From NCBI GenBank assembly GCA_000002445.1, contig CH464491.1, positions 96,001 to 160,000 on the forward strand: DNA of 64,000 bases. Reading direction: 5' to 3'. The notes under the pieces were generated by a model, which saw only the letters and a program-made list of their open reading frames with translations, was not told the origin of the DNA and did no database searches. This document shows, in pieces, positions 6,388 through 38,541 of this stretch. Position numbers and translations under genes: made by a program. Each line of letters begins with the position of its first letter. Position 1 is the stretch's first letter. This stretch comes from Trypanosoma brucei. Its lineage: Eukaryota.

Positions 6388-7044
6388 TGGGCTTAAAAGT
6401 GTTCACACTTCTCCTCTCACTCAAGTATACGTGTTTCTGACAGAAGGCAAATGTCCAACTACCTCTTGTGTAATCATTGGCAAATAAGAAACCAAGTTTA
6501 TTTGTTTTTTTTTTCATTGCAACGATGAACAGACATCAACCAAAAAATAAAAAAGAGGTAGGGCAGTGTAAAGTCATTGGCGTCGGAGTGAATAACATAT
6601 ATATATATATATATATATATATACTACTACTACTACAAGCCATATGTTGTTCCTCATTAAGCGCACAGTTATTACCGATATTAGATAGTAGAGAACACTA
6701 CCCTTCCTAAAAGGAAGAAGTTGTGCAGGGGGGGGAGCGGACGGAAAAAAAAACTGAGTAATAGAGACGCCTAGTGTCTGGTACTTCACTTTAGAACGCC
6801 CGCTTTATCACAAAATTAAAATGTGTATTTATACACTTATTTAGCCGCCCCATGCTGCTCACTCGACAACAATCCCATTCCTCTCATCACGTCCCTCCCA
6901 TTGTCACAACGTCCACACTACTACACATCCATAACCATCGGTGGTTGGCTTTCTTAGCAACACCGGTTCCACTTCAGGGTAGCCGCTTGCACATTTACAG
7001 GGTTTCTTTTTTTAAAAAAAAAAAAGAAAGTAGTCGGCGACACC

Positions 7045-9891: not shown

Positions 9892-10293
9892 TGCTTGCGG
9901 GATTCACAAGGTGATACAATTTGCTTTGTATAATATCCAATTAACCCACCTTCCTTTAAACAACCTCGCTCGTATTTAGAAAAATAAAAAAAAAGAAAAA
10001 ACTGCTCGGCATTCAAAAAAAAAAAAAGCACAGCCCCAATGATTTACGGTAAAAATAGAGAAAACATAAAATAAACGGAGGATGAGAAAAAGAAGAAGAG
10101 GAATAGTTATGCACACAAGGACGGTAACAAGGGGTAACCAAGGAAAAAAAAAGTGAAACTTACGTGGAGTAATCCACCTACCAAAACTATGATAACAACC
10201 TCCCCTGCAGGTTTAAAAGGTTAGGGAAGGGGTGGAGGGACAAAACACAGAAACAAGTGACGACGAACAAACCCGATGTTGCACCACACACGC

Positions 10294-13985: not shown

Positions 13986-15832
13986 GCTTGAAAATTAGAG
14001 CTGTTGTGCAACACAAACAGAGACACACACACACACACACAAAGGCAGAACCGTACACCTATAAGAAGAAAAAATAAGAAATACGTAAGTTTCGAAACCA
14101 ACCATTTGGAGAAATAAGACGATTACAAACACGTCAAGAACAGGGGGAAAAAAGGGAGGTAAAGCGCCTGGAGGAAACAAACCATTGAAGGGAAGGTGGT
14201 TCAGCATTTACCTCACTTAAACCGCAACCTCGTCGAACAGTAAGCACACGAACAAATGTGTGCATGTGAAAATAATAAACACGAACAACTTTCCCAATTG
14301 TGGCGAAATTTTATGATAATGATGGTAAGGAGGAAGAAAGGAAGAGGAGGAGAAGGGGGAATAAAAAAAAAATGCGACACAAAACTCCGCGCATCCGGCA
14401 GCTGCTGACATCAATCATAAAACCGGCAGAAATTGGTAACACACACGCACATGAGCCCACAGTAAAGCTGTGAACATCAGTGAGCTCATATACATTCTTT
14501 TTTATATATATATTTCTCTCGTAAGGAAGGAGGAGGGAAATTTACCGAAATCGCGTGAGACTACTGCACCCCTCCCTTCCGTGTTAACTATAAATGTAAG
14601 CAACTCGCCACTGCTTCTCCACAAACGGTAAATGAAACATGTGTTGTTTCTTGTTTCTGTTATTTTTCTGTTTTCTCTTTTTTTTTCTCTTGTGGCTGTT
14701 GTTGTTGTTTTTATTTTTTTTCCCCCTTTTGGTATGGCTGTTGTCTACAGATTTGATACGCCGCTGTACTCCCGTCCCAGTCGGCGTATGGCACCACGGC
14801 GAATAAATAGAAATACCATTGTACCAACTATTCCAATTAGCAGTAAATATGCAACTAAATACCGTTCCCGTGGGATCTCCGGTTGTTGTTGGCGTTGTTG
14901 TTTTTGTTGGAGTTGCTCATGAACCTTCGCGGCAATGGAGACATTTGTAATATTTTCCATATTCCACTACAAGTAAATATTATCAAAATAAATGGCACCA
15001 AAATACACCACTTACAAACTGGACACAAATTCGATGGAAAAATACTTGAAACAGTAAAAACGAAAACGAAAAAAAAAAGAACTACAATAATAAGAATAAT
15101 AATGATTCATTTATTTTTTGTTAATATTCGAAACAAGAAGAAAAAAAAAAGGAACAAAGTAGAGCTTGTTAATTTGTTTTCTTTTACAGCATCATGAGCA
15201 AATGATATGAATGATAAGCACAAAAAAAAAGATACCGACAAAATATAAACATGAGGGCAAGTTTTTAAAAAGAAATATGTGAATGTTACTGCAATAGGAT
15301 CTGGGGAAATTCGCACTGAATGGTGAGAAGTTTACCAAATGTTCAAAAACAAAAATAATTATATGGACACACAACCATCACAACTTTAAATGACCGGTTG
15401 AATACTCATTGGAACACGCCAAACTCTCAAAGAAATATTTCTCAACATTGCGCTCAAGCAAACGATGCAGTAGTAGCAAAAAGGCATGTAACTAAAATAG
15501 GCGGTAAGCAACGAGGAAAAGGAAAAGAAAAAAAAAGGAACGCAACAATAAAATATTCCTACAAATATACACAGTACCAATATATGAAGTGCGGTTCACA
15601 ACTACACCGAAGAGAAAATCGCGGTTGAGGTACAGAAGGATTTTAAAAAACAAAAAGAAAAAGAAAAACATTAGTGACTGTAACACGTCATTCCACACAC
15701 AATCTTTTTATATGCTTTCCTCCTCCTTTTCTTTTCTTTTCTTTCCTTTTCTTTTTCTTTTCTTTCCTTTCCTTTCCTTTTCTTTCCTTTTTCATATATC
15801 ATATTATATTTTCTTTTTCTTTTTTTCCCCCT

Positions 15833-16306
15833 TTACGTTTCAGCACCACATCGGCGCAATTCCTCCTGCAGTACGCGACAACACTCCGCGAAAGGCCTCC
15901 CGCTTCCACAGCAGCATGACGGAGCATCCGGTGGTGAATTAATGAGATTTTGACGGAATGCCTCATCTCGAATGACGCGAATGGCCTCCGGAGTCCCAAT
16001 ATTTTTTAGCGCATTAAATTCAACGCATCGCCTCCGTAATGACGCAATTGTGCCGAATCGCTCGTGAATATTAGATTTAACGCCTTCTCGTGGTATTTTC
16101 CGTCGCTGCCTCCAACCCAAAGCTGCAAATATGGCGATAAAAGTAGTAACAATAACATACATACGCAATGAATCTTGATGAAGCCTACTGATAATAACTG
16201 CACCAAACCACCACACAATTAACCAAAGAATGCGCCTCACCCATCGCTTTTTGCTTTTTAACGAAGCCCGCTGCCTTCGCTCCGAAATATCTGAAGGTGG
16301 AGCCAT
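15833..16306 (-). CDS. Small membrane protein with C-terminal SEC-C zinc-binding motif (conserved hypothetical)
   Basis: 157-aa ORF, the only convincing ORF in about 9 kb of low-complexity DNA. Two predicted TM helices ('ILWLIVWWFGAVIIS', 'YVIVTTFIAIFAALGW'). 'CCCGSGRPFAECC' matches the SEC-C consensus C-x-C-G-S-G-x(4-5)-C-C. Confidence 0.5.
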   Translation of the reverse strand: MAPPSDISERRQRASLKSKKRWVRRILWLIVWWFGAVIISRLHQDSLRMYVIVTTFIAIFAALGWRQRRKIPREGVKSNIHERFGTIASLRRRCVEFNALKNIGTPEAIRVIRDEAFRQNLINSPPDAPSCCCGSGRPFAECCRVLQEELRRCGAET

Positions 16307-19300
16307 TAGTTTCTAAAAGGAGGAGGAGGGGGGGACAATATGCGCAAATACGGAAGATGATACAACAAAATATATATATATATATATATATATTATTATT
16401 ATTATAAAGAGGATAGATCACAAGTGAATAAACGGGCGACGTAAACTGCATTCACAAATTGAACCATAAACTTTTTCTCACTCTTTTTGAGGTGACGATA
16501 TCATGGCGGCAAAAAAAAAAAAAGAGGAAAGCAAAATTAATAACACCGTCGCAGTTACTCACATGAGTTTTGTAATAGTTCCATAACATCAAAAATGCAC
16601 CTTCTAATAATTAGGATGAAAAATATAAAAAAAGGCTCATTCCTCCCCTCATCAGCTCTCAGTATTGACTTGAGCATCACTCCGTTCAGATTATAATACC
16701 ATATAATATAAAAGTGTAAGAGATAAGAGGAAGAAAAGAGGCTCCAGCACATTAACGGAAAAATAATACACACAAATCACTAAAGTGATGTTAATAACAA
16801 CCTCAAACTTCAATAAATAAATCAATATATATATATATATATATTAAATAAATAAATATGTATATTGATTTATTTATTTGATATAATGAAGTTTTATATG
16901 GTGTTTACCAGTACCCGAAAGGGAATACAACCGATCCAACGCACTTTTACAACATCATCAATGTAAGCCAAAAAGACCCGAAAGGATTTCTTTTGCTGCC
17001 ACTTTCAACACAACTCCATCATTACTCCTATCATTTATACCTAACATACGCACTGAATAGTAAAGAAGAGAGAAATGAAGAAAAATGAAGAAAAAGGAAA
17101 AAATAGAAAGAAAAATAGAAGAGTCATTAAACAATGATGAGTTATTGCAGTAAACATTCACAAGTCAAATCCGTATATTTAATGAAAGGAGGGGGGGCAG
17201 TCACACGCAAAGCTCCTGAAGGTTTCGCTGGGGGCAAGGCAACTTCATACAGCGGAGAAGACTTTTTTTAAAAGAGAAAAAAAGCGCCAGAACCATCAGC
17301 TACACACCAACAAAATAAAAAAAAAAAGGAGAGCGCCACTCCACTTTAACCATGCATATATTCACACAACACCCTCTTTTTCCTTGATTCTCACACTCTT
17401 TTTTTTCCCCCATTCTTCCTCTTCTTCTGTCCTTCCTTTTTTTTTAAAACCTTTCTCCCTTTTTCCACCATATAGAAATAAACGTGAACATTTAAATATG
17501 AATGTATACCTTTTTTTTTCACCTTTTGGGTACAGAGCTTTGACTACCACATGCAGAGCATACATATGTTAATCCCACAAAAATAATATAAATAGATACA
17601 GATATACTTTTTTATTTATATTTGTGCTTGCATGTGTGTGCGCGTGCGTGCGTGCTTGTGTTTGTTTGTTTGTTTGTTTATATCCATGTGTATAACCATA
17701 TACAAATGTATTTTATATTATATCAATACGCTGTCTTTGCTAATTTTCTTTTTTGTTTTTTTTGGTTTTGTTTTCTTTTCTCCTTCTCTTGCTTTTGATA
17801 TTTTTCCCCTCTTTTTTTTTTGCTTTTTTCTTATTCCTTCTTCGTTGTTGCTTCCTCAATTTTACTTCTGCTTATAAATATATATATATATATATACTAC
17901 CCAACCATTCTTCCAGGTAATTCAGCGCTGATGAGTATCGACTGTGAAATACTATCTCTAACAATCCGTAACAAAAATAAAACTGAAAAAAAACATTTTT
18001 TACCAATCGTCGCTACATCCAAATAATATGAAAAGGGCTCAGCACATCTCATGTTCATTTGGGAAGCGAAGACTCGCGGCTCCTTTTGTTTGTTTGTTTG
18101 TTTCTTCTTTTCTTTCTTTCGTTTAAACTCTTCTTTTTCCACTTCGACGTTTTTTTTTCTTTTTTTCCTTTCCATTCTTCCCTTTTCGTTTCCCGCTCAC
18201 ATCCCTTTTTTTTCCCCCTCTTATTTTGAATTTTTGCTTCTTTTCCCTTCTTGTTTGTTTGTTTGTTTGTTTGCTCTTTTTTTTTCTTCTTTATTTTGAT
18301 CTGACGTATTCGTTTTCGCTAGTTATTCCTTTTGTTTTCATAAAACACAAACGCCGCTCTCTCTCTCTCTCTCTCACACAAATTTCTTTCTTTCATTGTT
18401 TTTTTTTTCCTCTTTTGATCCTTTTTTTTTTTCTGCTACTATTGTTTTTGACTTAGTCATGAGCCTCATTTTCCCTTCTGTATTTTTCCCCCCTTAGAAT
18501 CCGTTCCACTCATTTATATATATATATATAATTTATAAATATTTAAATTTATTGTGAAAACCTCCTTTACGCCGACGCATGCGCGCTCTCACTTGTCCCA
18601 CCCTTTTTTTTGGTTCTTTTTTTTTTCTTGTGTGTCTGTCTTTGCGTATATTTTGTTTGTTTCTTCTCTTTTCTGCATTTTCTGCATTTTCTTCATGCCA
18701 CATTTCCACTCCAATCCTTTCGCCACTTCCGTTCCCTTTCATTTCCTTCCCATCATTATAACATTACTGTTCATACATAATATTCCCCAAATACAATATA
18801 AAACAGCGGTACCACATTTAAAAATAAATTAAAAAATTAAAAAATAAAGTAAAGTTAAGGTAAATAAAAGACATAAAAATAAGAAAAATAAGAGAAAGAA
18901 AAGCGAACCGCTGAAAACACACACATATATGCGCGTAAAAAACAAAAAAACAAAAGAAACAAAAGGGGAAAAGGAACAAAACAGAACAGAACAGAACTGA
19001 TGAGGGAAAGAAATGAAAGAAATGGGCAAAACGAAGAGAAGAGGCACCGAAAGAGTAAAAGTCATCTTTTTCTGTCTTTTATTTTTTTTTTTCGTTTCAT
19101 GGCCACAAAACATGAAGCCATACACGCACGTATACTCATGCACACGGTAAAAGCAGATGATTCCGGTAATAATTTTTTTTTGTAAAAATAAAAAAGAAAC
19201 CCCCAAAAAAAAAAATACACAAAAAAATGGTAGGTAACAAAAAGCCGCTGGTATATAAACACACTATATGATGAATCGTAAATATTGTGTTACTTATCAA

Positions 19301-19830
19301 ATGTTCATGATCCTCTTCCCTCACACACACACACACACAAACATACCGTAAGAGAGAAGATCAGGGACACTTCCAAACACAATAAAACGTAAAAAAAAAA
19401 AAAGAACGAAAAATGAGAGGAAATTCAGGCGGGACGACGCGAGAACTTTTCGAAAGGGAGGAATCGGTAAAATAGTGCATAACAAAAGGAGAAAAGAAAA
19501 AGAGAAAAAGAAAAAAAAGAAAAAAAAAAGAGGAGAAAAAAGGGAAAAGAAAAAAGAAAAAAGGGAAGAGGGAAAGAAGACAACAACGGTCAACTGGAAC
19601 GAAGGAAACCCACATATGAAAATAACTGGGTGGTGAAAACAGCAAAAATAGCATATGAACAACAACAACAACAACAAGAACAAACAAACAAACAAACGAG
19701 CAAAAAAAAGTAGAAAAAACAAAAACAAAAACAACCAAAAACTGACCACCCAAATTTGCCTAACACACGACACAAGAAATAATAGCCAAAAAGTATGCGC
19801 GAAGAAATATGAAAGCGAGGGAGTATAATT

Positions 19831-19872
19831 AAATGAAATGAAATGAATGAACGAATGAATGAATGAACGAAT
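19831..19872. repeat. (GAATGA/AATGA)n repeat
   Basis: 'aaatgaaatgaaatgaatgaacgaatgaatgaatgaacgaat'. Confidence 0.85.
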
Positions 19873-20763
19873 AGTGGGCATGAGATTGCACTTTTCAGTA
19901 GTTCAAGCCACTCAGAGGTGTTGTGAATCAAAAAAAAAAAATGTAAAACATGGACAAAGAAAACAGAAAGGCAAACACACACACAAAACAAAAAGTAAAG
20001 GAGATTTGCTTCAACCACATATAATGTGATTTAGAAAGAACAAAACAACAAACAAAAGGGAGAAAGGTACGTTCATGATGCACACAAAAAAACAAAAAAA
20101 CAAATACGAATTTGTACCAAATAAAAACAAAAAAGAAGTTAAGAGACACATTTTGCGTACGGACGCACTCAAAAATAAAAATGGTGCAGCGGTACCCAAA
20201 AGAGAGGAGTAGGGAAAAGGGGGACATACATGATGCCAACTGTAATGGTGACAGGAACAACACACACTGAAACGAAAACAAAACAAAACAAAATACCAAA
20301 CGAGACATGCGCTTAACAATGCAGAGTATTTCGCTTCAGCTCGTTTCGCCTCGTTTCTCATTCCTTTTTTTTTCATTTTTTTCTTTCATTTTTTTTTTTG
20401 CGATGTACCTCTCCCAACTCATTGCATCCTCTCATGTCATCTTGTGTTTTTTTTCCGCATTCCTTTTTATGTTGTTATTTCATCATCATCATTTTCATCA
20501 CAATAATCTCCTCTCTTCGGCAGCACATGCACTTCCACAACTTAGTGTGTGTATGTTTCTCTATCCCCTCCTTTTTTTTTTTGAATTCTCTCTTCTTTTC
20601 ATTCTTTTAATTGTTCGTTCGTTTGTTCTCCTCTGCATTCACTCAACTGTCCTTTCCTCTCATATTCAACGGAATGTGACATGTGGAGAATTGACAGACA
20701 TTTCAACGCGTCAAGTAAATGCTCCAAATCATCATGAGGATCTTTCTTCAATCTCATCTTGTC

Positions 20764-20795
<32 letters not shown>

Positions 20796-22955
20796 AAATC
20801 AATATTACCCCTTCGTTCATCCTCTCTTTCTTCCCTATTTTCCTATTACTTTTTCATTTTTCTTTTTTCCCTTCTGTTTTTTTTTATTTTTAAAGAAAAG
20901 GTTTCCCTCGCACTTTTCTGTCCGCACACATCCACACACACAAAAACAAACACACATGCAAAATCTCTTTCTTTACTCTTTCCTTTTTTAAAAAAAAAAA
21001 ATTTCCCCTAATCTTTCCAAATATTTATTCTCACTACCGTCAGGCAACTCTTCTCACTTCCTCTTCTTGGGTTTCTCTCGTATGTGATGTTATGTATTAT
21101 TTTTTTTCTTTTTTTTTGGGGGGGGGAGGGGAAGTGGAGACGAACACTGCTGTAAAATGTGTCTGTTTGCATAAGATGCGGGTTCACCTTCATTCGGTGG
21201 GGAATAAAGAGGGAGAAAGAAAGAGAGAAGTAGTTAAAAATAAAAAAGAGAAAAAAAAAGAAATGAAATGTGTATGTAACTGACTTCAGGAATATGTTGC
21301 GGGTAAATAAATATTTATTTTTGGACTCCAACTACTTTCATATTGCCACCATAATATTCCCCACATTCACATCCATTACTCCGTCGTATCGCGTTGTACC
21401 CTTTTTTTTTTATTTATTACTTTAATCCTAATCTCAACCACCTCAACACCATCCTTTTCAATTGCATTCTTTTCTCCTCTCCTCTTTTTCTCCCCTTTTG
21501 CTATATATTTCTCACCTTTTCTTTTCTCTCTTTTTTTTTTATTGTTTTGTACAATCAACTCTGTATGTTGTCACAATACGCGCATGGCTCCCTATACAAA
21601 AGAAAAACACAAATACATGTACACACGAAAAAGCGGAGACACATACGTCTTTCTTTCCAACGACGCGCTCGACGTGGTTGTGCTTAGGTTTTCATATTAT
21701 AATTTATTATTTTTTTTTAATTTTTCACGCTCAAAAATTGATTTCATTATGTTCTCCTCATTCCTTCCACTTCCACTTCCACTTCTCCCACCTCTTTCTG
21801 TTTCTCTTTCTGTTTGTTTCCCTTCCTTTTTCTTTTTGCGTTTTTTTTTCCACCTTTCATTCGTTCTTTTCAACCGGGTCTGGCTCACTTCTTGCTGAAG
21901 GTTCCCTTCATTATCATATTATTATTATTATTATTGCTAGTGAGCTATTCTTTTCTTCCCTTCCCTTTCCTTTCCTTTTTTTGGATTTATTTATTTTTAT
22001 TTATCATATTTTTTTTTTCTGTTTCTTATTTTTTTTTTGCCCTCTCCACTATACTTTTATACTTTAACCCTTAAGTTAAATAAACAAATAAAACACACAT
22101 TGCATCTCGGTTATGATATCTTATAGCATCATGCCTTTACCTCAATAAGATATTTCCCTTTTGCCCTTTGTTTATCTGTAAATAAATAAATAAATATAAA
22201 TATGTATACACGCATACCAAAATGCATATACTTAAATACTTTTGTTGAAATTGTATCTCTTCCTCCCTGTTTCCTTCTCTCCCTCACATTTCCGCTATCA
22301 TTTGTTTCACCATCTTCATTTTATCCGTTGGCTAATTTTCCTGATTACCGTTTCTTCTCTTTGGCTTTGCCAACTCCTCCCTCTTTTTTTCTTTTTTTCT
22401 TTTTTTTCTTATTCTCCCATCTCTTCCTCCCTTCTCTCATTTGTGTCAAATTACCCCTTCCTAATATTTTCTTTTGGTTTTTGTTTCATTTCATTTTCCT
22501 ACTCGTTTACCCTTTATGAACCTTTCCGTTTCGGTACACATCACTTATCCCTTCTTTTTCTTATTATTATTATTATTATTCTTATTATTATTATTATTTC
22601 TTTTCTTTTTCCCTCCACCCATCACCCCTCTTCCTCATCCAATTCGATCCAATCCAACATTCTTTCACATCTGACATCAGAGTGCATTCTGTACCGTAAC
22701 GAAAGAAAAAAAATACACACAGAAATATATATATATATATATATATATACTCATTCTTTGATGTTTTTTTTTTCTTTTCGTGTCTGAAAAGAGAGAAGAA
22801 AAAGAAACAATAACTATAACAATAACAATAACAAGTAACAACAAAAACAATAGTAATAATAATAATACGGCCAAAGAGTAAAGAGTAAAGAGTAAAGTCA
22901 CACCTGCCCACAAATATGCATCTCACATATCACATAAAAGTCACTTTTTACCCCT

Positions 22956-23615
22956 TCATTTACGGGCAGGCCGACCGCTTTGTTGCCCAGTTTGACCCGG
23001 TGCCTGCTGCGGAGGTGGTGGTGGGGGAAGTTGAGTTTGTTGAGGCGGTGCATGCATCATATACTGCTGATACATTGCCATCATTTGTTGTTGTGCATAT
23101 GGATTAGCAACGGGAGGATAAGCACCATAGCCACCATACCCGCCATAACCGCCATACGCATTGAAACCATTGTTCATGTTACGCCCACGTTGATGACCGC
23201 TAGCAGCCAGCGCTACCTTCAGTCGTTTGTTGAGGATTACAAAACCATTCAATGATGCAATCGCCTGTTGAGCACTCGAGGCGCTCTGAAACTTCACGAA
23301 ACCATAACCGCGACTTTGACGAGTCTCCCGATCACACACAATTTTAACCGACTCAATTGCCCCGAAGCGCTCAAACAACTGCCGGAGTTGCACCTCATCA
23401 ACAGTAGTTGGAATATAATTTACCATAAGATTGCGTAGAAAATCGGGTTCTTGATTCACTTGACCCAACGGTTGCGGAGGAGGTGCCTGTTGTTGTTGCT
23501 GCTGCTGCTGTTGTTGCTGTTGAGCGGGTTGTTGTTGTTGTTGCTGCAACTCCGACTGCGATTGCCCGGTGGTGTTGTAGGGGTCACATGGAGAAGCCAG
23601 TGGAACCTGAGACAT
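22956..23615 (-). CDS. UBP1: Single-RRM U-rich RNA-binding protein UBP1 (longer paralog: polyQ N-terminus, Gly/Gln-rich C-terminus)
   Basis: 219 aa. ATG at 23613-23615 and TGA at 22956-22958, both verified by reverse complement. RRM 'LRNLMVNYIPTTVDEVQLRQLFERFGAIESVKIVCDRETRQSRGYGFVKFQSASSAQQAIASLNGFVILNKRLKVALAASG' matches the kinetoplastid UBP1/UBP2 RRM as I remember it. A polypyrimidine tract lies immediately upstream on the coding strand. Confidence 0.8.
   Translation of the reverse strand: MSQVPLASPCDPYNTTGQSQSELQQQQQQPAQQQQQQQQQQQQAPPPQPLGQVNQEPDFLRNLMVNYIPTTVDEVQLRQLFERFGAIESVKIVCDRETRQSRGYGFVKFQSASSAQQAIASLNGFVILNKRLKVALAASGHQRGRNMNNGFNAYGGYGGYGGYGAYPPVANPYAQQQMMAMYQQYMMHAPPQQTQLPPPPPPQQAPGQTGQQSGRPARK
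23073..23438. repeat. Duplicated block, copy A (within UBP1): 366 bp, about 99.5% identical to 31244..31609
   Basis: Direct comparison of the two stretches. Identical except an adjacent CC/GG change at 23360-23361 vs 31531-31532. Flanks diverge sharply on both sides. Confidence 0.9.
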
Positions 23616-23624
23616 TTGTTTTGC

Positions 23625-23700
23625 GACTGCACCGTCAAAAAAATCAAGAAGAAAGTAAAAACAAAAATATAAAAAAGAAAAGAAAAAGAAAAAAAAGACC
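23625..23700 (-). promoter_or_regulatory. Polypyrimidine tract (coding-strand sense) immediately upstream of the UBP1 ATG; candidate trans-splicing signal
   Basis: Plus strand here is A/G-rich ('aaaaaaatcaagaagaaagtaaaaacaaaaatataaaaaagaaaagaaaaagaaaaaaaag'), so the transcribed minus strand is U/C-rich. Confidence 0.45.
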
Positions 23701-25907
23701 TTAATCTTTATGTACCGAGATGCGACGGATTATTTGGAGAAAGAAGGGGAAAAAAAGAATGAAAATTGCTTTGATTAAAAGATAAACAAACGGACAGGAA
23801 GTGAAGATTGAAGTGGAAACATCGGAAGTATCCCGCAGCATTATTTGAAATAGGAGGATGGTAAGAAAAAAAAAGTGGAAGTTAGAGTAGGGAGTGAATG
23901 TGGATTATATGAAAAAGAAAGATGATTACCAAACAAAAATATTAATGGGGAGAGGAGGAGGAATTCAAAAAAAAAATTAAATGAAGAAGGAAAGAAGGGA
24001 AAGGAGCGAATGCAAAGTTAAAGGATTAAAATCATAGAAAATAATCATTGCAAGATTCCCTTCTGAGTTAAGCCCCACTTAACATTTCTGCTGTCGTTGC
24101 AGCAAATTGTTGTCCTCCTCTCTCTCTCCTAACTCTTTTTTTTTGTTGTTGTTGTTACAACTGTTTTTTTTTCTTTTTATTATTTCCTCTCTTTCCTCAT
24201 CCTTTTCCCCCTTCTTGTCTGTTTATCTATACTTTTGTTCACCTATATATATATATATATATATATTTGTATTTTTGGTTTTTGTTTTGTCCCCTTTGTT
24301 TTGGAGGGATGTTTTTCTCTTTTTTTTTTTTCTTCTTTCGTTTTAATCACCTAATTATTCTCCTTTTTTTTTCTATTTAATTTTCCTCCTTTCAGAAGAA
24401 AAAAAGGAGCACCTACTCCCTTTCGCTTTCATCTTTATATTTATGTTATTTCATCCCTCTGTTGTTGTTTTTTTTCTTCTTCGTATTATTTTTCCCCCGT
24501 TACTTCTGCTAAAACTATACCATCAAACTCCCACCGCCTTGTTTTACAACACCACTGCATCGCAGCGAAAGGAAGGGGAGAAAAAAAACAAAACAAAAAA
24601 AAACACACACACACATAACACAAGAAAGAAGGAAGGAAGGAAGGGCACGCACACAGAAAGATTTAAAAAAACAAAACAAAATAAAATAAAGAAGAAAAAG
24701 AAAAAGAAAAAGAAAAAAAAGAGCGGGGAGAACAATAACAATAATAATCATCATAACAAAAGTTACCCAAGATGAGATGTTACGTCACACACGGGGTCAA
24801 AGAAACTCCTCCTCCTCCACCTCCCCTTTCCTCCTCTTGTCATAAAAAACACACAACATTTACACCTAATCCCATTTTTAACTTCCATTCATAATTCTCA
24901 TCCCATCATAACTCGTCAACTCATCCACATAAATTTTCTCCCGTTCCTCCTTTTTTCTTTTTCTTTTTGTTTTTTTTGTCACTTTGTTTGTTTGCTTGTT
25001 TGTTTGTTTTTGTTTTTGTTTGACGTTTCCCCCACACCCACACATACATACACATACACAATTGCATATCATATATGTAATATATATTATGTAAAACGAC
25101 ATACGTGTGCGTTACCTTTCTCTCGCCCTCTGTGTCCCTCTTCGTATCACAACTTGCCGGTGTTTCTTTTAATTTTTATTTTTTATTTTCTTTTATTCAT
25201 CTTTTTCTTCTGTTTGATGGTTTGCTTTCAAGTCCTCACCTCATTCTTTCCTTCTTTTTCTTTCCCATTTGTCAACATTTCGCTTTATTTCATTCTTGCT
25301 CTTTTTCTTTTTTTTTTTATATTTCTTTACTTTGCTTATTATCCTCAAACTGATGTAACTGACGTTGCTACCTTTTGTGGTAAATGCAGTAAATTTATTT
25401 AAGGCAACGCATAGGAAACAATAGAAAAAAAAAAGAAAAAAAGAAAAGAAAGAAAGAAGCGGGAACACGAAGAAAAATGAAAAAGCAACGAACTGACACC
25501 ATCGCAAAACAACAAACACTTTCGCGTGTATCACTTTTTTGTTTTATTGTTTTCTTTTTTCTTTCGCTTAAATTGCAAAAACTCCAACACTCGTGCATTC
25601 ATGTTTCCCTTCACTTCTCTTCTTTTTCACTTTTCAATTTGTTGCTGTTGTCGTTGTTTATTTATTTTTTTTTTTAATCTCTGCTGACAATTCCCCCTCC
25701 TTCTATTGGTGTTTCACCATTTTATTTAATATCCTCTTATAAAAAGCGCCAATTTTCATTTTTTTTTTTAAATTTATTTCCCCCTCCCCTCCCCTCCCCT
25801 CAAGTCCACCGTAGTGAAGTCACTTGAAAGTAACAAAATAAAATATACCATCATAAAAAGTATTTTATTTTATTTCTTTGTTTCGTATCCACATATCCAA
25901 TAATAAG

Positions 25908-25910
<3 letters not shown>

Positions 25911-25942
<32 letters not shown>
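25911..25942. repeat. (AT)n microsatellite, about 16 units
   Basis: Read directly from sequence. Confidence 0.95.
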
Positions 25943-25950
<8 letters not shown>

Positions 25951-28900
25951 ATACGTATATAACTACATATAAATATATGAATACAGGCACGTGAGGGAAA
26001 AACAAGAAACACAAACACAAACTGTCACACAAGAAAAAAAAAAACGACAAAAAGTTTACCGCAACCGCACGATGCCACAGCGGCAATAATAACAACCAAA
26101 TAGAGATGGAAAAATATGGGAGGAAAAATAAAAAGAAAAAAGAAGAAAAGAAGAAAAGAAGTACCGACGAACAAAAACAAAAAACACAAACATAAACACA
26201 CAAAGGAAGAGAAGTGTACGAGCCCAACTAAGGCAATGAAAAATTGGAAGAAAATAAAGGAGGTACGAGTTAGAAATGAAACACAAACACACAAACAAAG
26301 TCATTTCATTTCTTTTTTTATGATTCTTTTTTTTTAAAAAAAACCCATATACAAATACAAACACAATAACAATAACAACAGCATCGGTAGCGGCAATGAA
26401 TTTCCTTTTTTTTTCTTCATCTTCCTCTCATCCTCTTTTTCCTCTCACTTATATTTATATCAGTAATTTGCATCCTCTCAAACATAAGCCACTAATCCTC
26501 TCTTTACTCTGCCAGTGAAGGCATTGAGAGGACGTGAGAAAAGAAAAAAAGATGAAAAAGGAAAAGGAAAAGGAAGAGGAAGAGGAAGAGGAGGTAAGGA
26601 CAAAAAAGGAAAAGAAAAAAAGGAAAAAAAAGAAAAAAAATTTCAAAAAAACAACAATAACGACAATAACAAATACTCAAAAAAAAAAACACAAAAAGAA
26701 AAGAAAAGAAAAGAAAATCCGCTGAACAGAAGAAAAGGTATGGACTGCGGTGATATAATATTGACGGTGGTGTCAAGAAGGTCTCCTTCCCATGAGATTA
26801 ATTTCACGCGATAAAAAAAAGAAAAAGAGGAGAGGAATGAAAAAAAAAACAGAAAAGACGCAATCTTTTTTTTTCCTTTCGTATTTTTCTTTTTTTTTTT
26901 CTGTCACGTTTTGCTTTGTTGTTGCGGTTTCATTTTCTCAAGCATTTGAGGGACGTAACATCAAAGGTGCTGTTGTTTTTTTTTTCTTTTGCGCATGCGC
27001 GGAGTTCGTAGACATTTAAAAAAAAATTTTATATATATAAAACATACATATTATAAATATATAAATGTAAATATATGTATAGAATCAACGGATGGATTAA
27101 TTGAAACTGAAGAAAAAAAAAAGACCAACGTGTACACAGGTGAGCGACAACAATAATAATAATAATAATAACCGACACACACACACACACACAAAGGGAT
27201 TAAAAGAAAGGTAAAAGAAGGCGAAACAGCGGTGGAATATAGAAGTTTTTTTCTTTTTTCTTTTCAAACAAAAAAAATAAAAGATAAAGAAAAGAAAAGG
27301 AAAAGAAAGGAAAGTAAAGTAAAGTAAAATTGTGTCCTACGCCCTGTTCACATTAAAGCAGCACGCGACTGGAAACAAAAAATAAGGGGATTCAACACCA
27401 CAAACGCAAAGCATCATTTGGTGGCAAAACGAAACACAAAAAGAAATTTCATTTCTTTCGACTATTAAATCGCTCACCCCCTTTTTCCTTTTTTTCTTTT
27501 TCTTTTTCTTTCTTTTTTGCCTTTTCCTTTCACTTTTTTTTTTAAAAAAAAAGAAGAAAAAAAGGAACTTCTTTTTTATTTGGTTTTAGTCTCACTTACC
27601 TCCATCCCGCTCGGTTCATTTAACCTTCTCTTTTAATCCCCTGAAACTTCACCTCCTCTCTCTTTTCTTTTTCTTTTCATTTTCCTCCTCTTAAACTCTC
27701 GCATGCATTTTTTCTTTCTTTTTTTTTTTTAAACCCTCCCCCTTCCCCTCTTCACTTCAGCCGTCTAATCAGGAGGCTATACAAGAGGGAAAGGAGTATT
27801 TTTATTTTTTTTTAAAAAAAAAGAAAAAAGAAAAGAAAAGAAAAGCGAGAACCACTCGTTACAAAGGCGAGAAACAAAGCGGAACCAAATAGAGAGAGGA
27901 AAAAAAAAGAAAAAGGAAGAAAGTAAACAACAAACAACAACAAGTCAAATATTAACGAATAAGCGCACAACCAGGTAAGCGCACACATATATACATATAT
28001 ACATATATTTAATATTCACTCATATATATATATATATGTATACGTACACGTGGGCTACGGAGCCACAACAACAATAATGATGGTGATGATAATGATGATG
28101 ATGATAACAACAATAACAATAATAGTGATAATAGTAACAGCAACGGAGTTCAAAGCAGAATCAAAAGAAAAAACAAAAAAGAAGAAGCGGGAAACAAACA
28201 GTAGACAAAAACAAACAATTTTTTTCCTTATTTTCCTAATTACAAAACATTAGCAGTGCAGATCGGTGACATCCACCACAACAGGTTGAAGAAACTAGGA
28301 GATATATATATATATATATAAAGAGGTAGTCTGCTACGTAATTACCCACACGTGGAGAGACATAAAAATATAAAATCAATGGGGAAACATAGCCAGACAA
28401 ATCATAATAACAATAACAATAACAATAGTAATAGTAATAACCGAAACTCTTTGAATCCAATGCACACACCGCACCCTTTTCTTATATCGTCTTATCATGC
28501 GCAAAAAACTCACATGACAATTTAGCAGCGGATACGAAAAGAAATGTAACGAAATGTTTAAGAAAAAAGGGGGTGCGCGTACTGAACCAGTGACAAAAAG
28601 GAGCGAGGGGTATAAAAGGTAGCAAAAGAAAAAAAAAAGGAGGAAAACAAACAAAAAAAAGAGAAGTTCGGCGCCTGCATTTAACGCAACGTAGCGCGAG
28701 AACGAATAGGAAGAAAAACAAACCGACAGATGTCGGCACCATACAGGGCCAGGCAAAGCCGCGCAGCCAGAAGAAACAAACAAACAAACAAACAACAACA
28801 AAGAGAAGAGAAGAGAATAGGAAAGAAAAAAAAAGAAAAAAGCCACAGTCCATAACAAACAAAGGTAAGACCATGTCACAATCCAGAAGAAAACCAAAAC

Positions 28901-29853
28901 AGATATAATAATAATAATAATGATGATGATGAAAAATAAGAGAAAAGGAGGAAAATCGTCGGCACGGCGACGCTCGTCTGTCATCATTTCGTGTGTTTTC
29001 TAGGCAATAGAGAGGATCTTCTTTTTTTTTCCTTTTTGAAATAAAATGAAATGAATAAAAGGGTCAGCGCAACGCGAAGCTAATCAAACAATCACAAAAT
29101 ATCAAATAAGCGGCTAGGCGGGGTTTCTTTTTTTTTTTTCATCACATATTCGTATCGTCCCCTTTTTTTTTCTCTCTTTTCGCGATATTCAAACAGTTTT
29201 CAATTCCATTGGCGGGTTCCAACCGGGTATTGGGGGGACGACAGTCATTTACTTTGTTGTTGTTGTTGTTTCTTTTGGTAAATGGAAAAATGAAGAAGGA
29301 ACTGAGCGGATCAAATTTAAAAAAAGGAAGGAAGGTAGAACAAAAAAAAAAACAAGCGCCGTCCAACTTCACTGCTACGCAACAACGACATCAACGTTTC
29401 AGAAAACCGAATTTCAATGACAATAATAACATTTAGCAAATGCTGGTCGTTTATTTGAAATACTACTCCTCCCATTCTTTTCCTTTTAGCTTCTCCTCTG
29501 GTTGTTCTTATGTTGTGGCGTTCCCCAAAATCTGAATAAAAATACACCTCTCTTTTTTTTTTTTCTTGGTCTTTCCAATTTTATTCGGATTTCAACTTTG
29601 CTTTGTGTTTGCTTCTGGGTTTTGGCTTCTTCACCAGTTTCTTTCATTCTCCCCCATTTGAGATTCCATTGCAGACATTAAATCCCCACCCTTTTTCCTT
29701 TGTTGTTGTTGTTGTTAATAATTTTCCTCTCTTACTCCACTTGACTCTCTGTGTTACTCTTTTGCTTCTCTTTTTTTTTTCTCTCTCTTTCCCCTCGCGG
29801 AACACTTTCTTTTACCTTTGAGTCTTTCCTGTTTTGGGACCATGTTTTACAGT

Positions 29854-29856
<3 letters not shown>

Positions 29857-29897
<41 letters not shown>
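29857..29897. repeat. (AT)n microsatellite, about 20 units
   Basis: Read directly from sequence. Confidence 0.95.
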
Positions 29898-29899
<2 letters not shown>

Positions 29900-30660
29900 T
29901 TGTTTGTGTTTGTTTGTTTATTTTTTTCTTTAATCTTAACTGTCCACACATACTTAAATACACCAGAATGATTCAGTCTGCTCGACGTTAAACGAGCAAA
30001 TAGAAGATAACTCAGATGTCAAATATTTACTTACAAAAATATACGTTTGTGGGACGCGGAATTTTGTTATTGTTTCTGTCGTTGATGCCTCTGTCTTCTT
30101 TTTTTTTTCTTCGGTTTCGCCTCCTTTCTTTTTATTTTATTTTATTTTTCTTTTTAAGCCCTCTCCTCTATTCCCTCTCTATCCAACACCTTTCTGTCAC
30201 TATTTGCTCCACTTCATTCCTCTTCTCTTTGTGTTGTTCCTCTTTATTCGTTTTCTCCGACTCATGCTTCATTTTCTTTGTTTAAACCCTCTCGTATTAG
30301 TGGAAAAAAAAAATTCTTTGCATGGTGTGATTTCGACCTTTGTGACATTTCACACTTACCTCTGTTTTTTTTTCCTTTCCTTTCCTTTCTTTTAATGTTG
30401 GTTTGTTTTGTTTTGTTCTTTCGTCTCTTTTTCTCCTCCCCTCCATGGTTTTCTTTTTTTTTTCTTTTTTTAACTTCGTCATGATTCATCCATTCATTTG
30501 GGTCTAGTGGGGAGGGAGAGCCGCTTCTCCAACTATAAGGCTCATATTTTGTACACAAATATAAATGTATGTGTGACAACAAAATAAAGTAATAACAGTA
30601 ATAATGGTAATAATAATAATAATAATAAGCGAGAAGCAAGTAAAACCCAACCCCAACAAA

Positions 30661-30750
30661 ACATAACATAACATAACACAACATAACATGACATGGCACA
30701 ATATGACATGATATGATATGTGATATGACATGACATGACATGGCATGGCA
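30661..30750. repeat. (ACATA/ACATG)n pentanucleotide-type repeat, about 90 bp
   Basis: 'acataacataacataacacaacataacatgacatggcacaatatgacatgatatgatatgtgatatgacatgacatgacatggcatggcac'. Confidence 0.9.
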
Positions 30751-31189
30751 CAAAACACACATACAAACATACACACAAACAAACACAGACAACAGCTCTG
30801 TTTCAACGCCTCGCTTGTATGAAAAGAGCTCCCACTCCGCTCCGCCCCCCCCCCTCTTTTATTTTCTTCTTCATTTTATTTTTGCTTCAAAAATAAAAGG
30901 GAAACTTTCCTTCCCATTTCCTCCCTCTTGTGCCCTTACTTCTTTACATACACACTCCGACAGCCTCCTGGGGCATTTAAAGTTCATATTCCTTTTCTTT
31001 TCCCTTCTTTTTTTTTCTTTTTTTTTTGCATTTTCTGTCATATCACCTTTAAAATAATTAAAATTACTTATCCTTTAAAAAAAAAACCTTCCATTCTCTC
31101 TCACACCCCTCCATCTGCCCCACCGACCCTTGAAGGGAAGCTGACGGGTTGAGAACCCCCCAAAAAAAAAAAAAGAAAAAGAAAAAACA

Positions 31190-31717
31190 TTACTGACGGG
31201 ATATCGGAGGCATCGGGGAAGCGGCCATCATATAATGTTGTTGCATTGCCATCATTTGTTGTTGTGCATATGGATTAGCAACGGGAGGATAAGCACCATA
31301 GCCACCATACCCGCCATAACCGCCATACGCATTGAAACCATTGTTCATGTTACGCCCACGTTGATGACCGCTAGCAGCCAGCGCTACCTTCAGTCGTTTG
31401 TTGAGGATTACAAAACCATTCAATGATGCAATCGCCTGTTGAGCACTCGAGGCGCTCTGAAACTTCACGAAACCATAACCGCGACTTTGACGAGTCTCCC
31501 GATCACACACAATTTTAACCGACTCAATTGGGCCGAAGCGCTCAAACAACTGCCGGAGTTGCACCTCATCAACAGTAGTTGGAATATAATTTACCATAAG
31601 ATTGCGTAGCAAATCGAGATCTTGATTCATTGCTCCCATAGAAGGAGGAGGTGCCTGTTGTTGCTGCTGCTGAGGAGGCTGTTGTTGCGTTGTGTAATAC
31701 TGCGGTTGCTGGGACAT
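31190..31717 (-). CDS. UBP2: Single-RRM U-rich RNA-binding protein UBP2 (shorter paralog of UBP1)
   Basis: 175 aa. RRM identical to UBP1 except Ala->Pro (FGPIES). Shorter Q-rich N-terminus and a different C-terminus. Shares a 366-bp near-identical DNA block with the UBP1 gene. Confidence 0.8.
   Translation of the reverse strand: MSQQPQYYTTQQQPPQQQQQQAPPPSMGAMNQDLDLLRNLMVNYIPTTVDEVQLRQLFERFGPIESVKIVCDRETRQSRGYGFVKFQSASSAQQAIASLNGFVILNKRLKVALAASGHQRGRNMNNGFNAYGGYGGYGGYGAYPPVANPYAQQQMMAMQQHYMMAASPMPPISRQ
31244..31609. repeat. Duplicated block, copy B (within UBP2), offset +8171 from copy A
   Basis: As above. Confidence 0.9.
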
Positions 31718-37923: not shown

Positions 37924-38541
37924 TTAATTCTGCTGCTGCTGCTGCTGCTGTGCGAGAAACATCTGCCGCTGGAAGATATTTTGCATAGCAGCCTGCTGTT
38001 GCATTGTAAACATCATGGCGGATGCACTCATGGCCTTGTAGCTTTCCATAGCCGCCTCCGCATTGGCAAATGCCACCTTTAATCGTTTCCCTGCAATGGG
38101 GTATCCATTCAACCATTGCACAGCATATGTGGCGCTAAAGAAATACATATACTTCACAAAACCATAACCTCGACTCTCTCTTGTAACCTTGTCGTAAATA
38201 ATCTTCACGCTCTCAATGGGACCGAATTGCGCAAACAGTTGGAAAAGCCGGTCCTCGTCCATCATGGGAGGCAAATAATTGACAATAAGGTTTCGCAACG
38301 GTTCCGGTTCCATCGAAAATGAGGGTCTCGGGGCGGCGAATGGAGCTGCCCTCGGAGTTAAACCTCCACTGAGATGTTGTTTCGACCCTTCAGGCGCCTC
38401 GGCTTCATTTGATGGAAGTTGAGGTGCTGATGTCATCGGTGGCGGCATTTGCGTGGAAATAAAAGGAGATGATGTGGATGCGGGCGCTGCCTCCCCTACT
38501 GGGAAGCTTTCACACTCCGGTTCCATTTGTATTGGTAACAC
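37924..38541 (-). CDS. RBP3: Single-RRM RNA-binding protein RBP3 (third UBP-family paralog in the cluster)
   Basis: 205 aa. RRM 'LRNLIVNYLPPMMDEDRLFQLFAQFGPIESVKIIYDKVTRESRGYGFVKYMYFFSATYAVQWLNGYPIAGKRLKVAFANAEA' is clearly homologous to the UBP1/2 RRM but diverged at the DNA level. C-terminal polyQ. Confidence 0.75.
   Translation of the reverse strand: MLPIQMEPECESFPVGEAAPASTSSPFISTQMPPPMTSAPQLPSNEAEAPEGSKQHLSGGLTPRAAPFAAPRPSFSMEPEPLRNLIVNYLPPMMDEDRLFQLFAQFGPIESVKIIYDKVTRESRGYGFVKYMYFFSATYAVQWLNGYPIAGKRLKVAFANAEAAMESYKAMSASAMMFTMQQQAAMQNIFQRQMFLAQQQQQQQN

What the first reader, a model, noticed from the sequence alone, without database searches (positions are those of the whole stretch)
22956..31717. 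UBP1/UBP2 tandem paralogs share a 366-bp, about 99.5%-identical block confined to the RRM, a gene-conversion signature
Blocks 23073..23438 and 31244..31609 are identical except one adjacent dinucleotide (CC vs GG). On the minus strand that changes only Ala to Pro in 'FG(A/P)IES'. Immediately outside the block, the 5' coding regions (polyQ lengths), the C-termini and both UTRs are unrelated. Such a sharp boundary with near-zero synonymous divergence inside indicates ongoing homogenisation, or very recent conversion, of the RNA-binding domain. The flanking regions, which plausibly determine localisation and partners, are free to diverge. The 8.2-kb spacing between copies is unusually large for a tandem pair.
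Basis: seen in the sequence. Interest (0 to 1): 0.6.

Follow-up and report, generated by a model that had tools for sequence, protein, structure and literature searches.

The report
Gene conversion keeps UBP1/UBP2 RRMs identical
Two neighbouring trypanosome RNA-binding protein genes, duplicated long ago, keep copying their central RNA-binding segment onto each other, so that part stays almost identical while their ends diverge; this is a clear but ordinary case of gene conversion between tandem paralogs.

Summary
Window 23073-23438 and 31244-31609 differ only by one adjacent dinucleotide. They lie in two minus-strand genes, UBP1 (22956-23615) and UBP2 (31190-31717).

Two details need correction:
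- The block is not confined to the RRM. It covers codons 60-181 of UBP1, and about 31% of it is the Gly/Tyr- and Gln-rich segment after the RRM.
- The adjacent coding flanks are diverged homologues, not unrelated sequence. Only the UTRs lack similarity.

- RRM-core nucleotides cluster by species (bootstrap 88-100).
- Within-species paralog dS is 0-0.13. Between-species dS is 0.3 to saturated.
- N- and C-termini and gene order cluster by paralog, so the duplication is old.
- Tract ends differ by lineage.
- One synonymous site co-varies in both copies between T. b. brucei and T. b. gambiense, which suggests conversion within T. brucei.

Verdict: recurrent interlocus gene conversion is well supported. 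Partial conversion in trypanosome tandem arrays is a known process and the RRM near-identity is published, so this is a new member of a known kind. Interest is moderate to low.

The parts
22956..23615 (-). UBP1 coding sequence (219 aa; downstream copy of the pair)
   Evidence: ORF. Arg131 matches Tb927.11.500 as described in PMC4967103. 99% identical to T. b. gambiense P0001. Pfam RRM_1 at aa 63-133. Best solved-structure match is TcUBP1, PDB 1U6F, E = 5e-55.
31190..31717 (-). UBP2 coding sequence (175 aa; upstream copy of the pair)
   Evidence: ORF. Identical to T. b. gambiense P0003. Pfam RRM_1 at aa 40-110.
23073..23438 (-). Homogenised tract, UBP1 copy (codons 60-181)
   Evidence: 364 of 366 nt identical to 31244-31609. 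dS 0.012 inside against about 1.9 in the aligned coding flanks.
31244..31609 (-). Homogenised tract, UBP2 copy (codons 37-158)
23187..23438 (-). RRM-core part of the tract in UBP1 (LRNLMVNY...SGHQR, 84 codons). This part is homogenised in every species examined.
31358..31609 (-). RRM-core part of the tract in UBP2
23073..23186 (-). Gly/Tyr-rich linker plus PYAQQQMMAM part of the tract in UBP1 (38 codons, outside the RRM). It is UBP2-type sequence that replaced the ancestral UBP1-type linker.
   Evidence: In the alignment, T. cruzi, T. rangeli, T. theileri and T. grayi keep paralog-specific linkers. T. brucei, T. congolense, T. vivax and T. melophagium carry the UBP2-type linker in both copies.
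31244..31357 (-). Same linker segment in UBP2 (inferred donor)
23360..23361 (-). The only difference inside the tract, UBP1 side: GGG GCA (Gly85-Ala86). Ala is derived and specific to T. brucei UBP1.
   Evidence: Every other orthologue sequence of either paralog has Pro here, except T. theileri, which has Gln in both.
31531..31532 (-). The only difference inside the tract, UBP2 side: GGC CCA (Gly62-Pro63)
23271..23273 (-). Ala115 codon of UBP1. It is GCT here and in this window's UBP2, but GCC in both copies of T. b. gambiense.
   Evidence: The background substitution level between the window and T. b. gambiense is about 0.9%.
31442..31444 (-). Ala92 codon of UBP2, which co-varies with UBP1 Ala115 between subspecies
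23439..23504 (-). 5' shoulder in UBP1: homologous to UBP2 31610-31672 but diverged (about 75-80% identity). It includes a 28/29 identical QQQQQAPPP patch.
   Evidence: (family D19).
23055..23072 (-). 3' shoulder in UBP1 (YQQYMM versus QQHYMM in UBP2 31226-31243), 14/18 identical
   Evidence: (family D12).
23616..31189 (-). 7.6-kb gene-free spacer between the paralogs. By inference it is mostly the UBP2 3' UTR plus the UBP1 5' UTR and processing signals. It is not part of the repeat.
   Evidence: Only low-complexity ORFs. No Rfam family. No paralogous similarity. That it is UTR is an inference.
37924..38526 (-). RBP3, the third RRM paralog in the cluster. It serves as a non-homogenised control.
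   Evidence: 55% nt identity to the UBP1 RRM, with a longest exact run of 11 nt.

Best explanation
UBP1 and UBP2 are an old tandem duplicate. The pair is present with the same gene order (ABC transporter, RBP3, hypothetical gene, UBP2, UBP1) in five of the Trypanosoma species examined.

Their central coding segment is repeatedly homogenised by non-crossover, interlocus (non-allelic) gene conversion.

Inferred mechanism:
1. A break or stalled fork in one copy is repaired by homologous recombination, using the paralog a few kb away as template. The template may be on the same chromatid, the sister or the homologue.
2. This copies a patch of tens to hundreds of bases.
3. The patch can extend only while the two copies remain similar enough. 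It stops at the indel-rich, diverged poly-Gln and Gly-rich low-complexity flanks.
4. Strong purifying selection on the RRM protein sequence slows divergence of the core. This keeps it a good recombination substrate, so the process sustains itself.
5. Crossover or single-strand-annealing outcomes would delete the spacer and fuse the genes. They are presumably removed by selection.

In the T. brucei lineage the tract covers the RRM plus the Gly/Tyr linker through QQQMMAM, and the linker was copied from UBP2 into UBP1. At least one conversion happened after the T. brucei/T. congolense split. One more probably happened within T. brucei diversification, without erasing the UBP1-specific Ala86.

Shown here: the pattern (species clustering, near-zero dS, orthologous flanks, lineage-specific tract ends).
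Inferred: the repair pathway, the role of heterology and mismatch repair in setting tract ends, and selection against crossovers.
For: - Exact block: 364 of 366 nt identical.
- Synonymous homogenisation within T. brucei: dS 0.012 in the block against about 1.9 in the aligned coding flanks, Fisher p = 7e-15.
- Same pattern in every species. RRM-core paralog dS: T. b. brucei 0.017, T. b. gambiense 0.034, T. cruzi 0.128, T. melophagium 0.017, T. theileri 0.035, T. rangeli 0.017, T. vivax 0.017, L. major 0, T. grayi 0.017. Between-species dS is 0.31 to saturated.
- The NJ tree of core nucleotides groups paralogs by species, bootstrap 88-100.
- T. congolense proteins share five block differences from T. 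brucei in both paralogs.
- The duplication is old. N-terminal 13-mers and C-terminal tails group by paralog across Trypanosoma, and synteny and gene order are conserved.
- Tract ends differ by lineage, which requires independent events:
  - RRM only, to GHQR, plus a small second identical block, in T. cruzi, T. rangeli, T. theileri and T. grayi.
  - RRM plus linker in T. brucei and T. melophagium.
  - To near the UBP2 stop in T. vivax.
  - Almost the whole CDS, plus 15 nt past the stop, in L. major.
- Recent activity: the Ala115/Ala92 codon is GCT in both copies here and GCC in both copies of T. b. gambiense, against a background divergence of about 0.9%.
- T. cruzi assemblies show patchy sharing of states between paralogs.
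- Control: RBP3, 6 kb upstream and only 55% identical, is not homogenised.
- Partial gene conversion is documented as common in T. brucei tandem arrays, with 21 of 47 arrays chimaeric (PMC1855330).
Against: - No conversion event was observed directly. Everything is inferred from sequence patterns.
- Evidence for conversion within T. brucei rests on one co-varying synonymous site in two genomes. Parallel mutation is unlikely but not excluded.
- The Ala86/Pro63 dinucleotide survives in both subspecies only 87 nt from that site. So conversion is either infrequent, short-tract, or opposed by selection there.
- T. cruzi paralogs differ at 7 synonymous sites in the core (dS 0.13), so homogenisation is slower or patchier in that species.
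- Flank dS relies on alignments through poly-Gln runs and is only approximate.
- No T. congolense DNA was available, only proteins.
- There is no GC3 excess in the converted core, so no sign of GC-biased conversion.
- For Leishmania I could not tell whether the two copies are orthologous to UBP1 and UBP2 or an independent duplication.
Confidence: 0.9

Rival explanations
1. Purifying selection alone. The RRM is so constrained, at protein or codon/RNA level, that the two copies have simply not diverged since an old duplication.
For: The RRM protein sequence is extremely conserved across Trypanosoma, Leishmania and Bodo. dN in the core is near zero everywhere.
Against: Synonymous sites in the same 84 codons are saturated between T. 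brucei and all other species, and reach dS 0.3 even between T. theileri and T. melophagium. Yet paralogs within a species have dS 0-0.13. Species-specific substitutions, both synonymous and amino-acid, are shared by both paralogs in every species. Selection cannot cause the same new change to appear in both copies.
Confidence: 0.02
2. Independent recent duplications, or recent insertion of a copied RRM cassette, in each lineage rather than conversion between old paralogs.
For: Near-zero divergence of a block is what a young duplicate looks like. In L. major almost the entire CDS is identical and both copies have UBP2-like ends, so a younger duplication there is not excluded.
Against: Across Trypanosoma the N-terminal motifs group by paralog: MSQ[VI]PL.S..DPY versus MSQQ.QYY. 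So do the C-terminal tails...RPARK versus ...[MV]PRQ. Gene order UBP2 then UBP1 and the neighbouring genes are conserved. Flank dS within T. brucei is saturated. Replacing an internal segment between two existing homologous genes is, by definition, gene conversion.
Confidence: 0.04
3. A single conversion event in the ancestor of T. brucei, now inactive. The block is a frozen relic rather than an ongoing process.
For: The Ala86/Pro63 dinucleotide is fixed in both T. b. brucei and T. b. gambiense and has not been erased. With about 0.9% background divergence between the two genomes, zero to two new differences in 366 nt are expected in any case.
Against: The Ala115/Ala92 synonymous site differs between the two subspecies genomes but is the same in both paralogs within each. 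That needs an exchange more recent than the Ala86 mutation, or parallel mutation with a chance of roughly 0.3%. Every other lineage shows its own separate homogenisation with its own tract ends, so the process recurs across the family.
Confidence: 0.15
4. Assembly artefact. The repeat was collapsed or cross-polished so that two truly different copies look identical.
For: The T. grayi draft assembly has reciprocal chimeric gene models on short contigs. This shows that assemblers do have trouble with this repeat.
Against: The same structure appears in independent assemblies of ten taxa. These include four different T. cruzi assemblies and a separately assembled T. b. gambiense chromosome. The copies retain a few stable, paralog-specific differences, such as Ala/Pro in both T. 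brucei genomes and Cys/Ala in all four T. cruzi assemblies. Collapsing or cross-polishing would have removed them.
Confidence: 0.02

Closest known systems
Partial gene conversion and concerted evolution in T. brucei tandem gene arrays (Jackson 2007, BMC Evol Biol 7:54; PMC1855330)
   Same: Same organism and same process. Tandem duplicates show chimaeric copies and paralogs that become more similar over time. [quoted passage not shown]
   Different: The UBP1/UBP2 pair is not in that paper's catalogue of arrays. Here the tract is an internal domain-plus-linker patch between two functionally distinct genes with unique ends and a 7.6-kb unique spacer. It is not a dosage array of near-identical units. 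It is also traced across ten taxa with lineage-specific tract ends.
The published TcUBP1/TcUBP2 and TbUBP1/TbUBP2 gene pair
   Same: These are the same genes. [quoted passage not shown] It also reports 73% global identity in T. brucei (PMC4967103) and adjacent genes in one polycistronic unit about 3 kb apart in T. cruzi (PMC11139272).
   Different: In the searchable library no paper connects UBP1/UBP2 with gene conversion or concerted evolution. The two hits mention the terms separately (one search checked one of them). The key primary paper (Hartmann et al. 2007) could not be read, so prior mention there cannot be excluded.
Concerted evolution of beta-tubulin and amino-acid transporter paralogs in trypanosomatids (PMC1533823, PMC1810246)
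   Same: Coding sequences are homogenised by gene conversion while the untranslated flanks diverge. This is taken from the titles and abstracts listed.
   Different: Those are multi-copy families homogenised over whole coding regions. Here it is a two-gene pair with a sub-genic tract. I did not read those papers in full.

Membership tests
Kinetoplastid UBP1/UBP2 single-RRM U-rich RNA-binding proteins | A single canonical RRM with RNP2 (LMVNYIP) and RNP1 (RGYGFVKF) motifs | tested here: met
   Pfam RRM_1, E = 2e-21 and 2.5e-22, one domain each. The motifs are visible.
Kinetoplastid UBP1/UBP2 single-RRM U-rich RNA-binding proteins | Orthology to the characterised T. cruzi and T. brucei proteins | tested here: met
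   Best solved-structure match is TcUBP1, PDB 1U6F, E = 5e-55. Arg131 position as published for Tb927.11.500. 99-100% identity to T. b. gambiense proteins. Conserved synteny.
Kinetoplastid UBP1/UBP2 single-RRM U-rich RNA-binding proteins | Binding to U-rich RNA | not testable with these tools
   Taken from the literature only (PMC3070815 and PMC6597758).
Interlocus (non-allelic) gene conversion / concerted evolution | Within the tract, paralogs of one species are closer to each other than to their orthologues | tested here: met
   dS matrix. NJ tree with bootstrap 88-100. T. congolense proteins.
Interlocus (non-allelic) gene conversion / concerted evolution | The duplication predates the speciations, with regions outside the tract grouping by paralog | tested here: met
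   N- and C-terminal motifs group by paralog. Linkers are paralog-specific in four species. Conserved gene order. Not resolved for Leishmania.
Interlocus (non-allelic) gene conversion / concerted evolution | Synonymous sites are homogenised too, not only amino acids | tested here: met
   Block dS 0.012 against flank dS about 1.9, Fisher p = 7e-15. Core paralog dS 0-0.13 in all species.
Interlocus (non-allelic) gene conversion / concerted evolution | A discrete tract with no change in copy number or flanking arrangement (non-crossover) | tested here: met
   Two copies with unique flanks in every contiguous assembly. Tract maps.
Interlocus (non-allelic) gene conversion / concerted evolution | Direct observation of a conversion event, or dependence on recombination genes | not testable with these tools
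   Needs experiments or phased population data.
Array homogenisation by unequal crossing-over | Copy-number variation, and homogenisation of whole repeat units including spacers | tested here: not met
   There are always two copies. Spacers and UTRs share no similarity. Only an internal coding patch is homogenised.
GC-biased gene conversion signature | Raised GC3 in the converted tract relative to the rest of the gene | tested here: not met
   GC3 in the core is about the same as in the rest of the gene in T. brucei (0.43 versus 0.41-0.43). There is no consistent excess in other species.

The most novel reading that the evidence does not exclude
The homogenisation may be directional and shaped by selection rather than a neutral by-product.

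On this reading, UBP2, the upstream gene, acts as a master copy that repeatedly overwrites UBP1. All three tract extensions whose direction can be inferred go from UBP2 to UBP1: the salivarian linker, both edges in T. melophagium, and the C-terminal region in T. vivax. The effect would be to hold two abundant RNA-binding proteins to one identical RNA-binding module, so that they compete for or share the same targets and differ only in their disordered tails.

The T. brucei UBP1-specific Ala86 would be kept by selection against conversion.

Three of three is not statistically significant (two-sided p = 0.25).
Probability: 0.15. Interest if true: 0.5.

Novelty: new member of a known kind. Interest (0 to 1): 0.35.

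Why it matters
**Biological consequence.** The two proteins cannot drift apart in RNA-binding specificity, because their RNA-binding module is repeatedly reset to one sequence. Any functional difference between UBP1 and UBP2 must therefore lie in the Gln-rich N-termini, the C-terminal tails or the very different UTRs. This is a useful constraint when interpreting knock-down, tethering and target-identification experiments.

**Practical consequences.**
- Short reads, RNAi fragments, antibodies and guide RNAs aimed at residues 60-181 of UBP1 cannot tell the two genes apart.
- Published variant calls inside the block deserve a second look. One example is R131L, reported as homozygous in UBP1 in two independently selected lines (PMC4967103).
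- Breaks made in one gene may be repaired from the other. This is an alternative reading of the chimeric UBP2/UBP1 transcript recovered after Cas9 cutting in T. cruzi (PMC11139272).

**Evolutionary value.** The pair is a compact, well-resolved example of sub-genic concerted evolution maintained over the whole Trypanosoma radiation, with different tract ends in sister species.

Tried and rejected
- **T. congolense DNA.** The exact-protein look-up found nothing, so only proteins were used.
- **More T. brucei strains.** A look-up with the window's own UBP1 found nothing on record. The UBP2 look-up returned only T. b. gambiense. The within-T. brucei inference therefore rests on two genomes.
- **Bodo saltans, to date the duplication.** The UBP-like gene sits at the start of its contig, and the neighbouring 177-aa gene is unrelated. 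Uninformative.
- **Hartmann et al. 2007,** the primary TbUBP1/2 paper, is not held in the library.
- **Jackson 2007.** Main text and supplementary tables were searched for the pair and it is not listed.
- **Rfam scan of 20-40 kb.** No RNA family in the spacers.
- **GC-biased conversion.** No GC3 excess.
- **Automatic block delimitation.** It cut the T. cruzi block short because synonymous differences cluster there. For T. cruzi I rely on the fixed 84-codon core and the site table.
- **Rejected explanations** (see rivals): chance, purifying selection alone, recent duplication, unequal crossing-over and assembly collapse.
- **The CC/GG dinucleotide as a micro-inversion.** I considered whether this was meaningful. 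Any GG-to-CC change is formally its own reverse complement, so nothing can be concluded.

Full report
**1. The observation**

Window 23073-23438 and 31244-31609 are 366 nt long and lie 8171 nt apart. They differ only at 23360-23361 (CC) versus 31531-31532 (GG) on the + strand.

Both copies lie in minus-strand ORFs: 22956-23615 (219 aa) and 31190-31717 (175 aa). In coding orientation the difference is GGG GCA versus GGC CCA. That is one synonymous change in Gly and one Ala/Pro replacement.

The block corresponds exactly to codons 60-181 of the first gene and 37-158 of the second.

**2. What the genes are**

The 219-aa protein has Arg131 at the position published for TbUBP1, Tb927.11.500 (PMC4967103). 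It is 99% identical to the T. b. gambiense protein. It has one Pfam RRM_1 domain at residues 63-133. Its best solved-structure match is T. cruzi UBP1, PDB 1U6F (E = 5e-55).

The 175-aa protein is identical to T. b. gambiense UBP2.

A third, more distant RRM gene, RBP3, lies at 37924-38526 on the same strand.

**3. Two corrections to the finding**

- The block is not confined to the RRM. The RRM core (LRNLMVNY...SGHQR) is 84 codons (23187-23438). The remaining 38 codons (23073-23186) encode the Gly/Tyr-rich linker and PYAQQQMMAM.
- The coding flanks are not unrelated. About 65 nt on the 5' side and 18 nt on the 3' side still align at about 75-80% identity. Further out the ends are diverged or unalignable.

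The UTRs share nothing but simple repeats.

**4. The comparative test**

A protein search returned both paralogs from many trypanosomatids. I fetched DNA for these loci:
- T. b. gambiense (L001)
- four T. cruzi assemblies (L002-L005)
- T. melophagium (L006)
- T. theileri (L007)
- T. rangeli (L008)
- T. vivax (L009)
- L. major (L010)
- T. grayi (L011, L012)

Gene order is ABC transporter, RBP3, a hypothetical gene, UBP2, UBP1 in T. brucei, T. cruzi, T. melophagium, T. theileri and T. rangeli.

Results for the 84-codon RRM core:
- Within-species paralog dS is 0-0.13 (T. b. brucei 0.017).
- Between-species dS is 0.31-0.39 for T. theileri versus T. melophagium, and about 0.9-1.2 for T. cruzi versus T. 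rangeli. It is saturated for T. brucei against all others.
- An NJ tree of core nucleotides pairs the two paralogs of each species, with bootstrap 88-100.
- T. congolense, available only as protein, shares five block differences from T. brucei in both of its paralogs.

Outside the tract the pattern reverses:
- The first 13 residues and the C-terminal tails group by paralog across Trypanosoma.
- The Gly-rich linkers are paralog-specific in T. cruzi, T. rangeli, T. theileri and T. grayi.

Within T. brucei, synonymous divergence is 1 of 81.7 sites in the block against 22 of 32 in the aligned coding flanks (Fisher p = 7e-15). The flank value runs through poly-Gln alignments and is approximate.

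They exclude purifying selection alone and recent duplication.

**5. Tract ends differ by lineage**

| Lineage | Extent of the homogenised tract |
|---|---|
| T. cruzi, T. rangeli, T. theileri, T. grayi | Ends at GHQR, the end of the RRM. A short second identical block lies at YGAYP...QQQMMAM. |
| T. brucei, T. melophagium | Runs through the linker. |
| T. vivax | Reaches nearly to the UBP2 stop. |
| L. major | The copies are identical over about 500 nt, including 15 nt past the stop. |

T. theileri and T. melophagium are close relatives with different tract ends, so separate events are required.

In the three cases where direction can be read, UBP2-type sequence replaced UBP1-type sequence. 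These are the salivarian linker, both edges in T. melophagium, and the T. vivax C-terminal region. This is only suggestive (p = 0.25).

**6. Timing in T. brucei**

Ala86 of UBP1 is derived. Every other orthologue sequence has Pro at that position, or Gln in both T. theileri copies. Ala86 is present in both T. b. brucei and T. b. gambiense.

The Ala115/Ala92 codon is GCT in both copies in this window and GCC in both copies in T. b. gambiense. Background substitution divergence between the two genomes is about 0.9%. Parallel mutation is therefore unlikely, with a chance of about 0.3%.

This implies an exchange more recent than the Ala86 mutation, with an end between the two sites, which are 87 nt apart. 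Conversion therefore appears to be still active but short-tract, or opposed by selection at Ala86. This rests on one site and two genomes.

In T. cruzi, four assemblies show patchy sharing of states between paralogs. For example, the UBP1 of one assembly carries the UBP2 state at two adjacent codons.

**7. Mechanism (inferred)**

The likely process is non-crossover homologous repair using the paralog as template. Tracts are limited by the diverged, indel-rich low-complexity flanks.

Crossover or single-strand-annealing products would fuse the genes and delete the spacer. They are presumably lost.

RBP3 is only 55% identical, with no exact run over 11 nt, and is not a partner. There is no GC3 excess in the core.

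The spacing between paralogs varies from 2.9 to 10 kb among species without affecting homogenisation. The 8.2-kb spacing in T. brucei is therefore incidental. The 7.6-kb spacer and the 9-kb stretch downstream of UBP1 have no convincing ORFs and no Rfam hits. They are most simply long UTRs, which is an inference.

**8. Comparison with what is known**

- Similar RRMs with different ends for UBP1 and UBP2 are already in the literature.
- Partial gene conversion is documented as frequent in T. brucei tandem arrays (PMC1855330). That catalogue does not list this pair.
- No paper in the searchable library links these genes to gene conversion.
- The primary 2007 TbUBP1/2 paper could not be read.

I therefore rate this as a new, well-resolved member of a known kind.

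**9. Caveats**

- No event was observed directly.
- There is no T. congolense DNA.
- Only two T. brucei genomes were compared.
- Orthology of the Leishmania pair is unresolved.
- The T. grayi gene models are probably mis-assembled.

Noticed in passing
L011 9213-9836 and L012 1704-2252 (T. grayi): The two T. grayi gene models are reciprocal chimeras. One has a UBP2 N-terminus with a UBP1 linker and C-terminus, and sits at the UBP2 syntenic position. The other has a UBP1 N-terminus with a UBP2 C-terminus, on a 2.3-kb contig. The likely cause is an assembler swapping paths through the near-identical RRM repeat in a short-read draft. A real rearrangement is not excluded.
   Followed up: partly
T. 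cruzi loci L002-L005, UBP2 about 6373-6873 and UBP1 10001-10675; literature PMC11139272: A 2024 paper cut TcUBP1 with Cas9 near codon 6 and recovered a chimeric mRNA, UBP2(1-17)/UBP1(32-end). The authors attribute it to an unusual RNA rearrangement. The junction coincides with the 5' edge of the sequence shared by the paralogs (PAQMNPEPD). Repair of the break from UBP2 at the DNA level, or template switching during RT-PCR, are alternatives the paper does not discuss. This is my inference.
   Followed up: partly
window 23221-23223 (UBP1 codon 131) and 31392-31394 (UBP2 codon 108); literature PMC4967103: The published R131L mutation was reported as homozygous in UBP1 in two independently drug-selected T. 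b. rhodesiense lines. It lies inside the 366-nt block that is identical in UBP2. The paper does not mention Tb927.11.510 in the mapping context. Short reads there cannot be assigned to one paralog. The same paper obtained homozygous knock-in clones at UBP1 after a single transfection.
   Followed up: no
window 37924-38526 (-): RBP3 is a third single-RRM gene of the same subfamily in the same cluster, 6 kb upstream of UBP2. It is 55% identical to UBP1 over the RRM at both protein and nucleotide level and shows no homogenisation.
   Followed up: yes
window 13986-22955 and 23616-31189: Two long stretches lack any convincing ORF: 9.0 kb downstream of UBP1 and 7.6 kb between the paralogs. They are rich in homopurine/homopyrimidine runs and (TA)n microsatellites and have no Rfam match. 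They are presumably very long UTRs. The T. b. gambiense annotation calls short low-complexity ORFs there, with no Pfam hit on record.
   Followed up: partly
window 23476-23546 (UBP1 poly-Gln) versus L001 18099-18755: UBP1 differs between this window and T. b. gambiense by one Gln codon in the CAA/CAG run, several synonymous CAA/CAG swaps, one Ala-to-Ser change near the C-terminus, and a GAC/GAT synonymous change. UBP2 differs at only one site. The exact 219-aa UBP1 of the window is not on record in the contig index.
   Followed up: partly
L002-L005 (four T. cruzi assemblies), RRM core codons: UBP2 exists as two haplotypes that differ at four synonymous sites. At these sites one haplotype matches UBP1. 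In addition, the UBP1 of one assembly carries the UBP2 state at two adjacent codons (CGA CAA). This is a mosaic pattern consistent with short conversion patches segregating within T. cruzi.
   Followed up: partly
L010 34-537 and 10001-10534 (L. major): The two Leishmania copies are identical over about 500 nt, including 15 nt beyond the stop codon. Both have UBP2-like C-termini and they lie 10 kb apart. Whether this is near-complete conversion of a UBP1/UBP2 pair or a separate duplication is open.
   Followed up: partly
L009 4545-5162 (T. vivax): The T. vivax UBP2 orthologue (205 aa, with an unusually long poly-Gln N-terminus) has no Pfam hit on record although it contains the full RRM. It did not appear among the protein-search hits.
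   Followed up: partly
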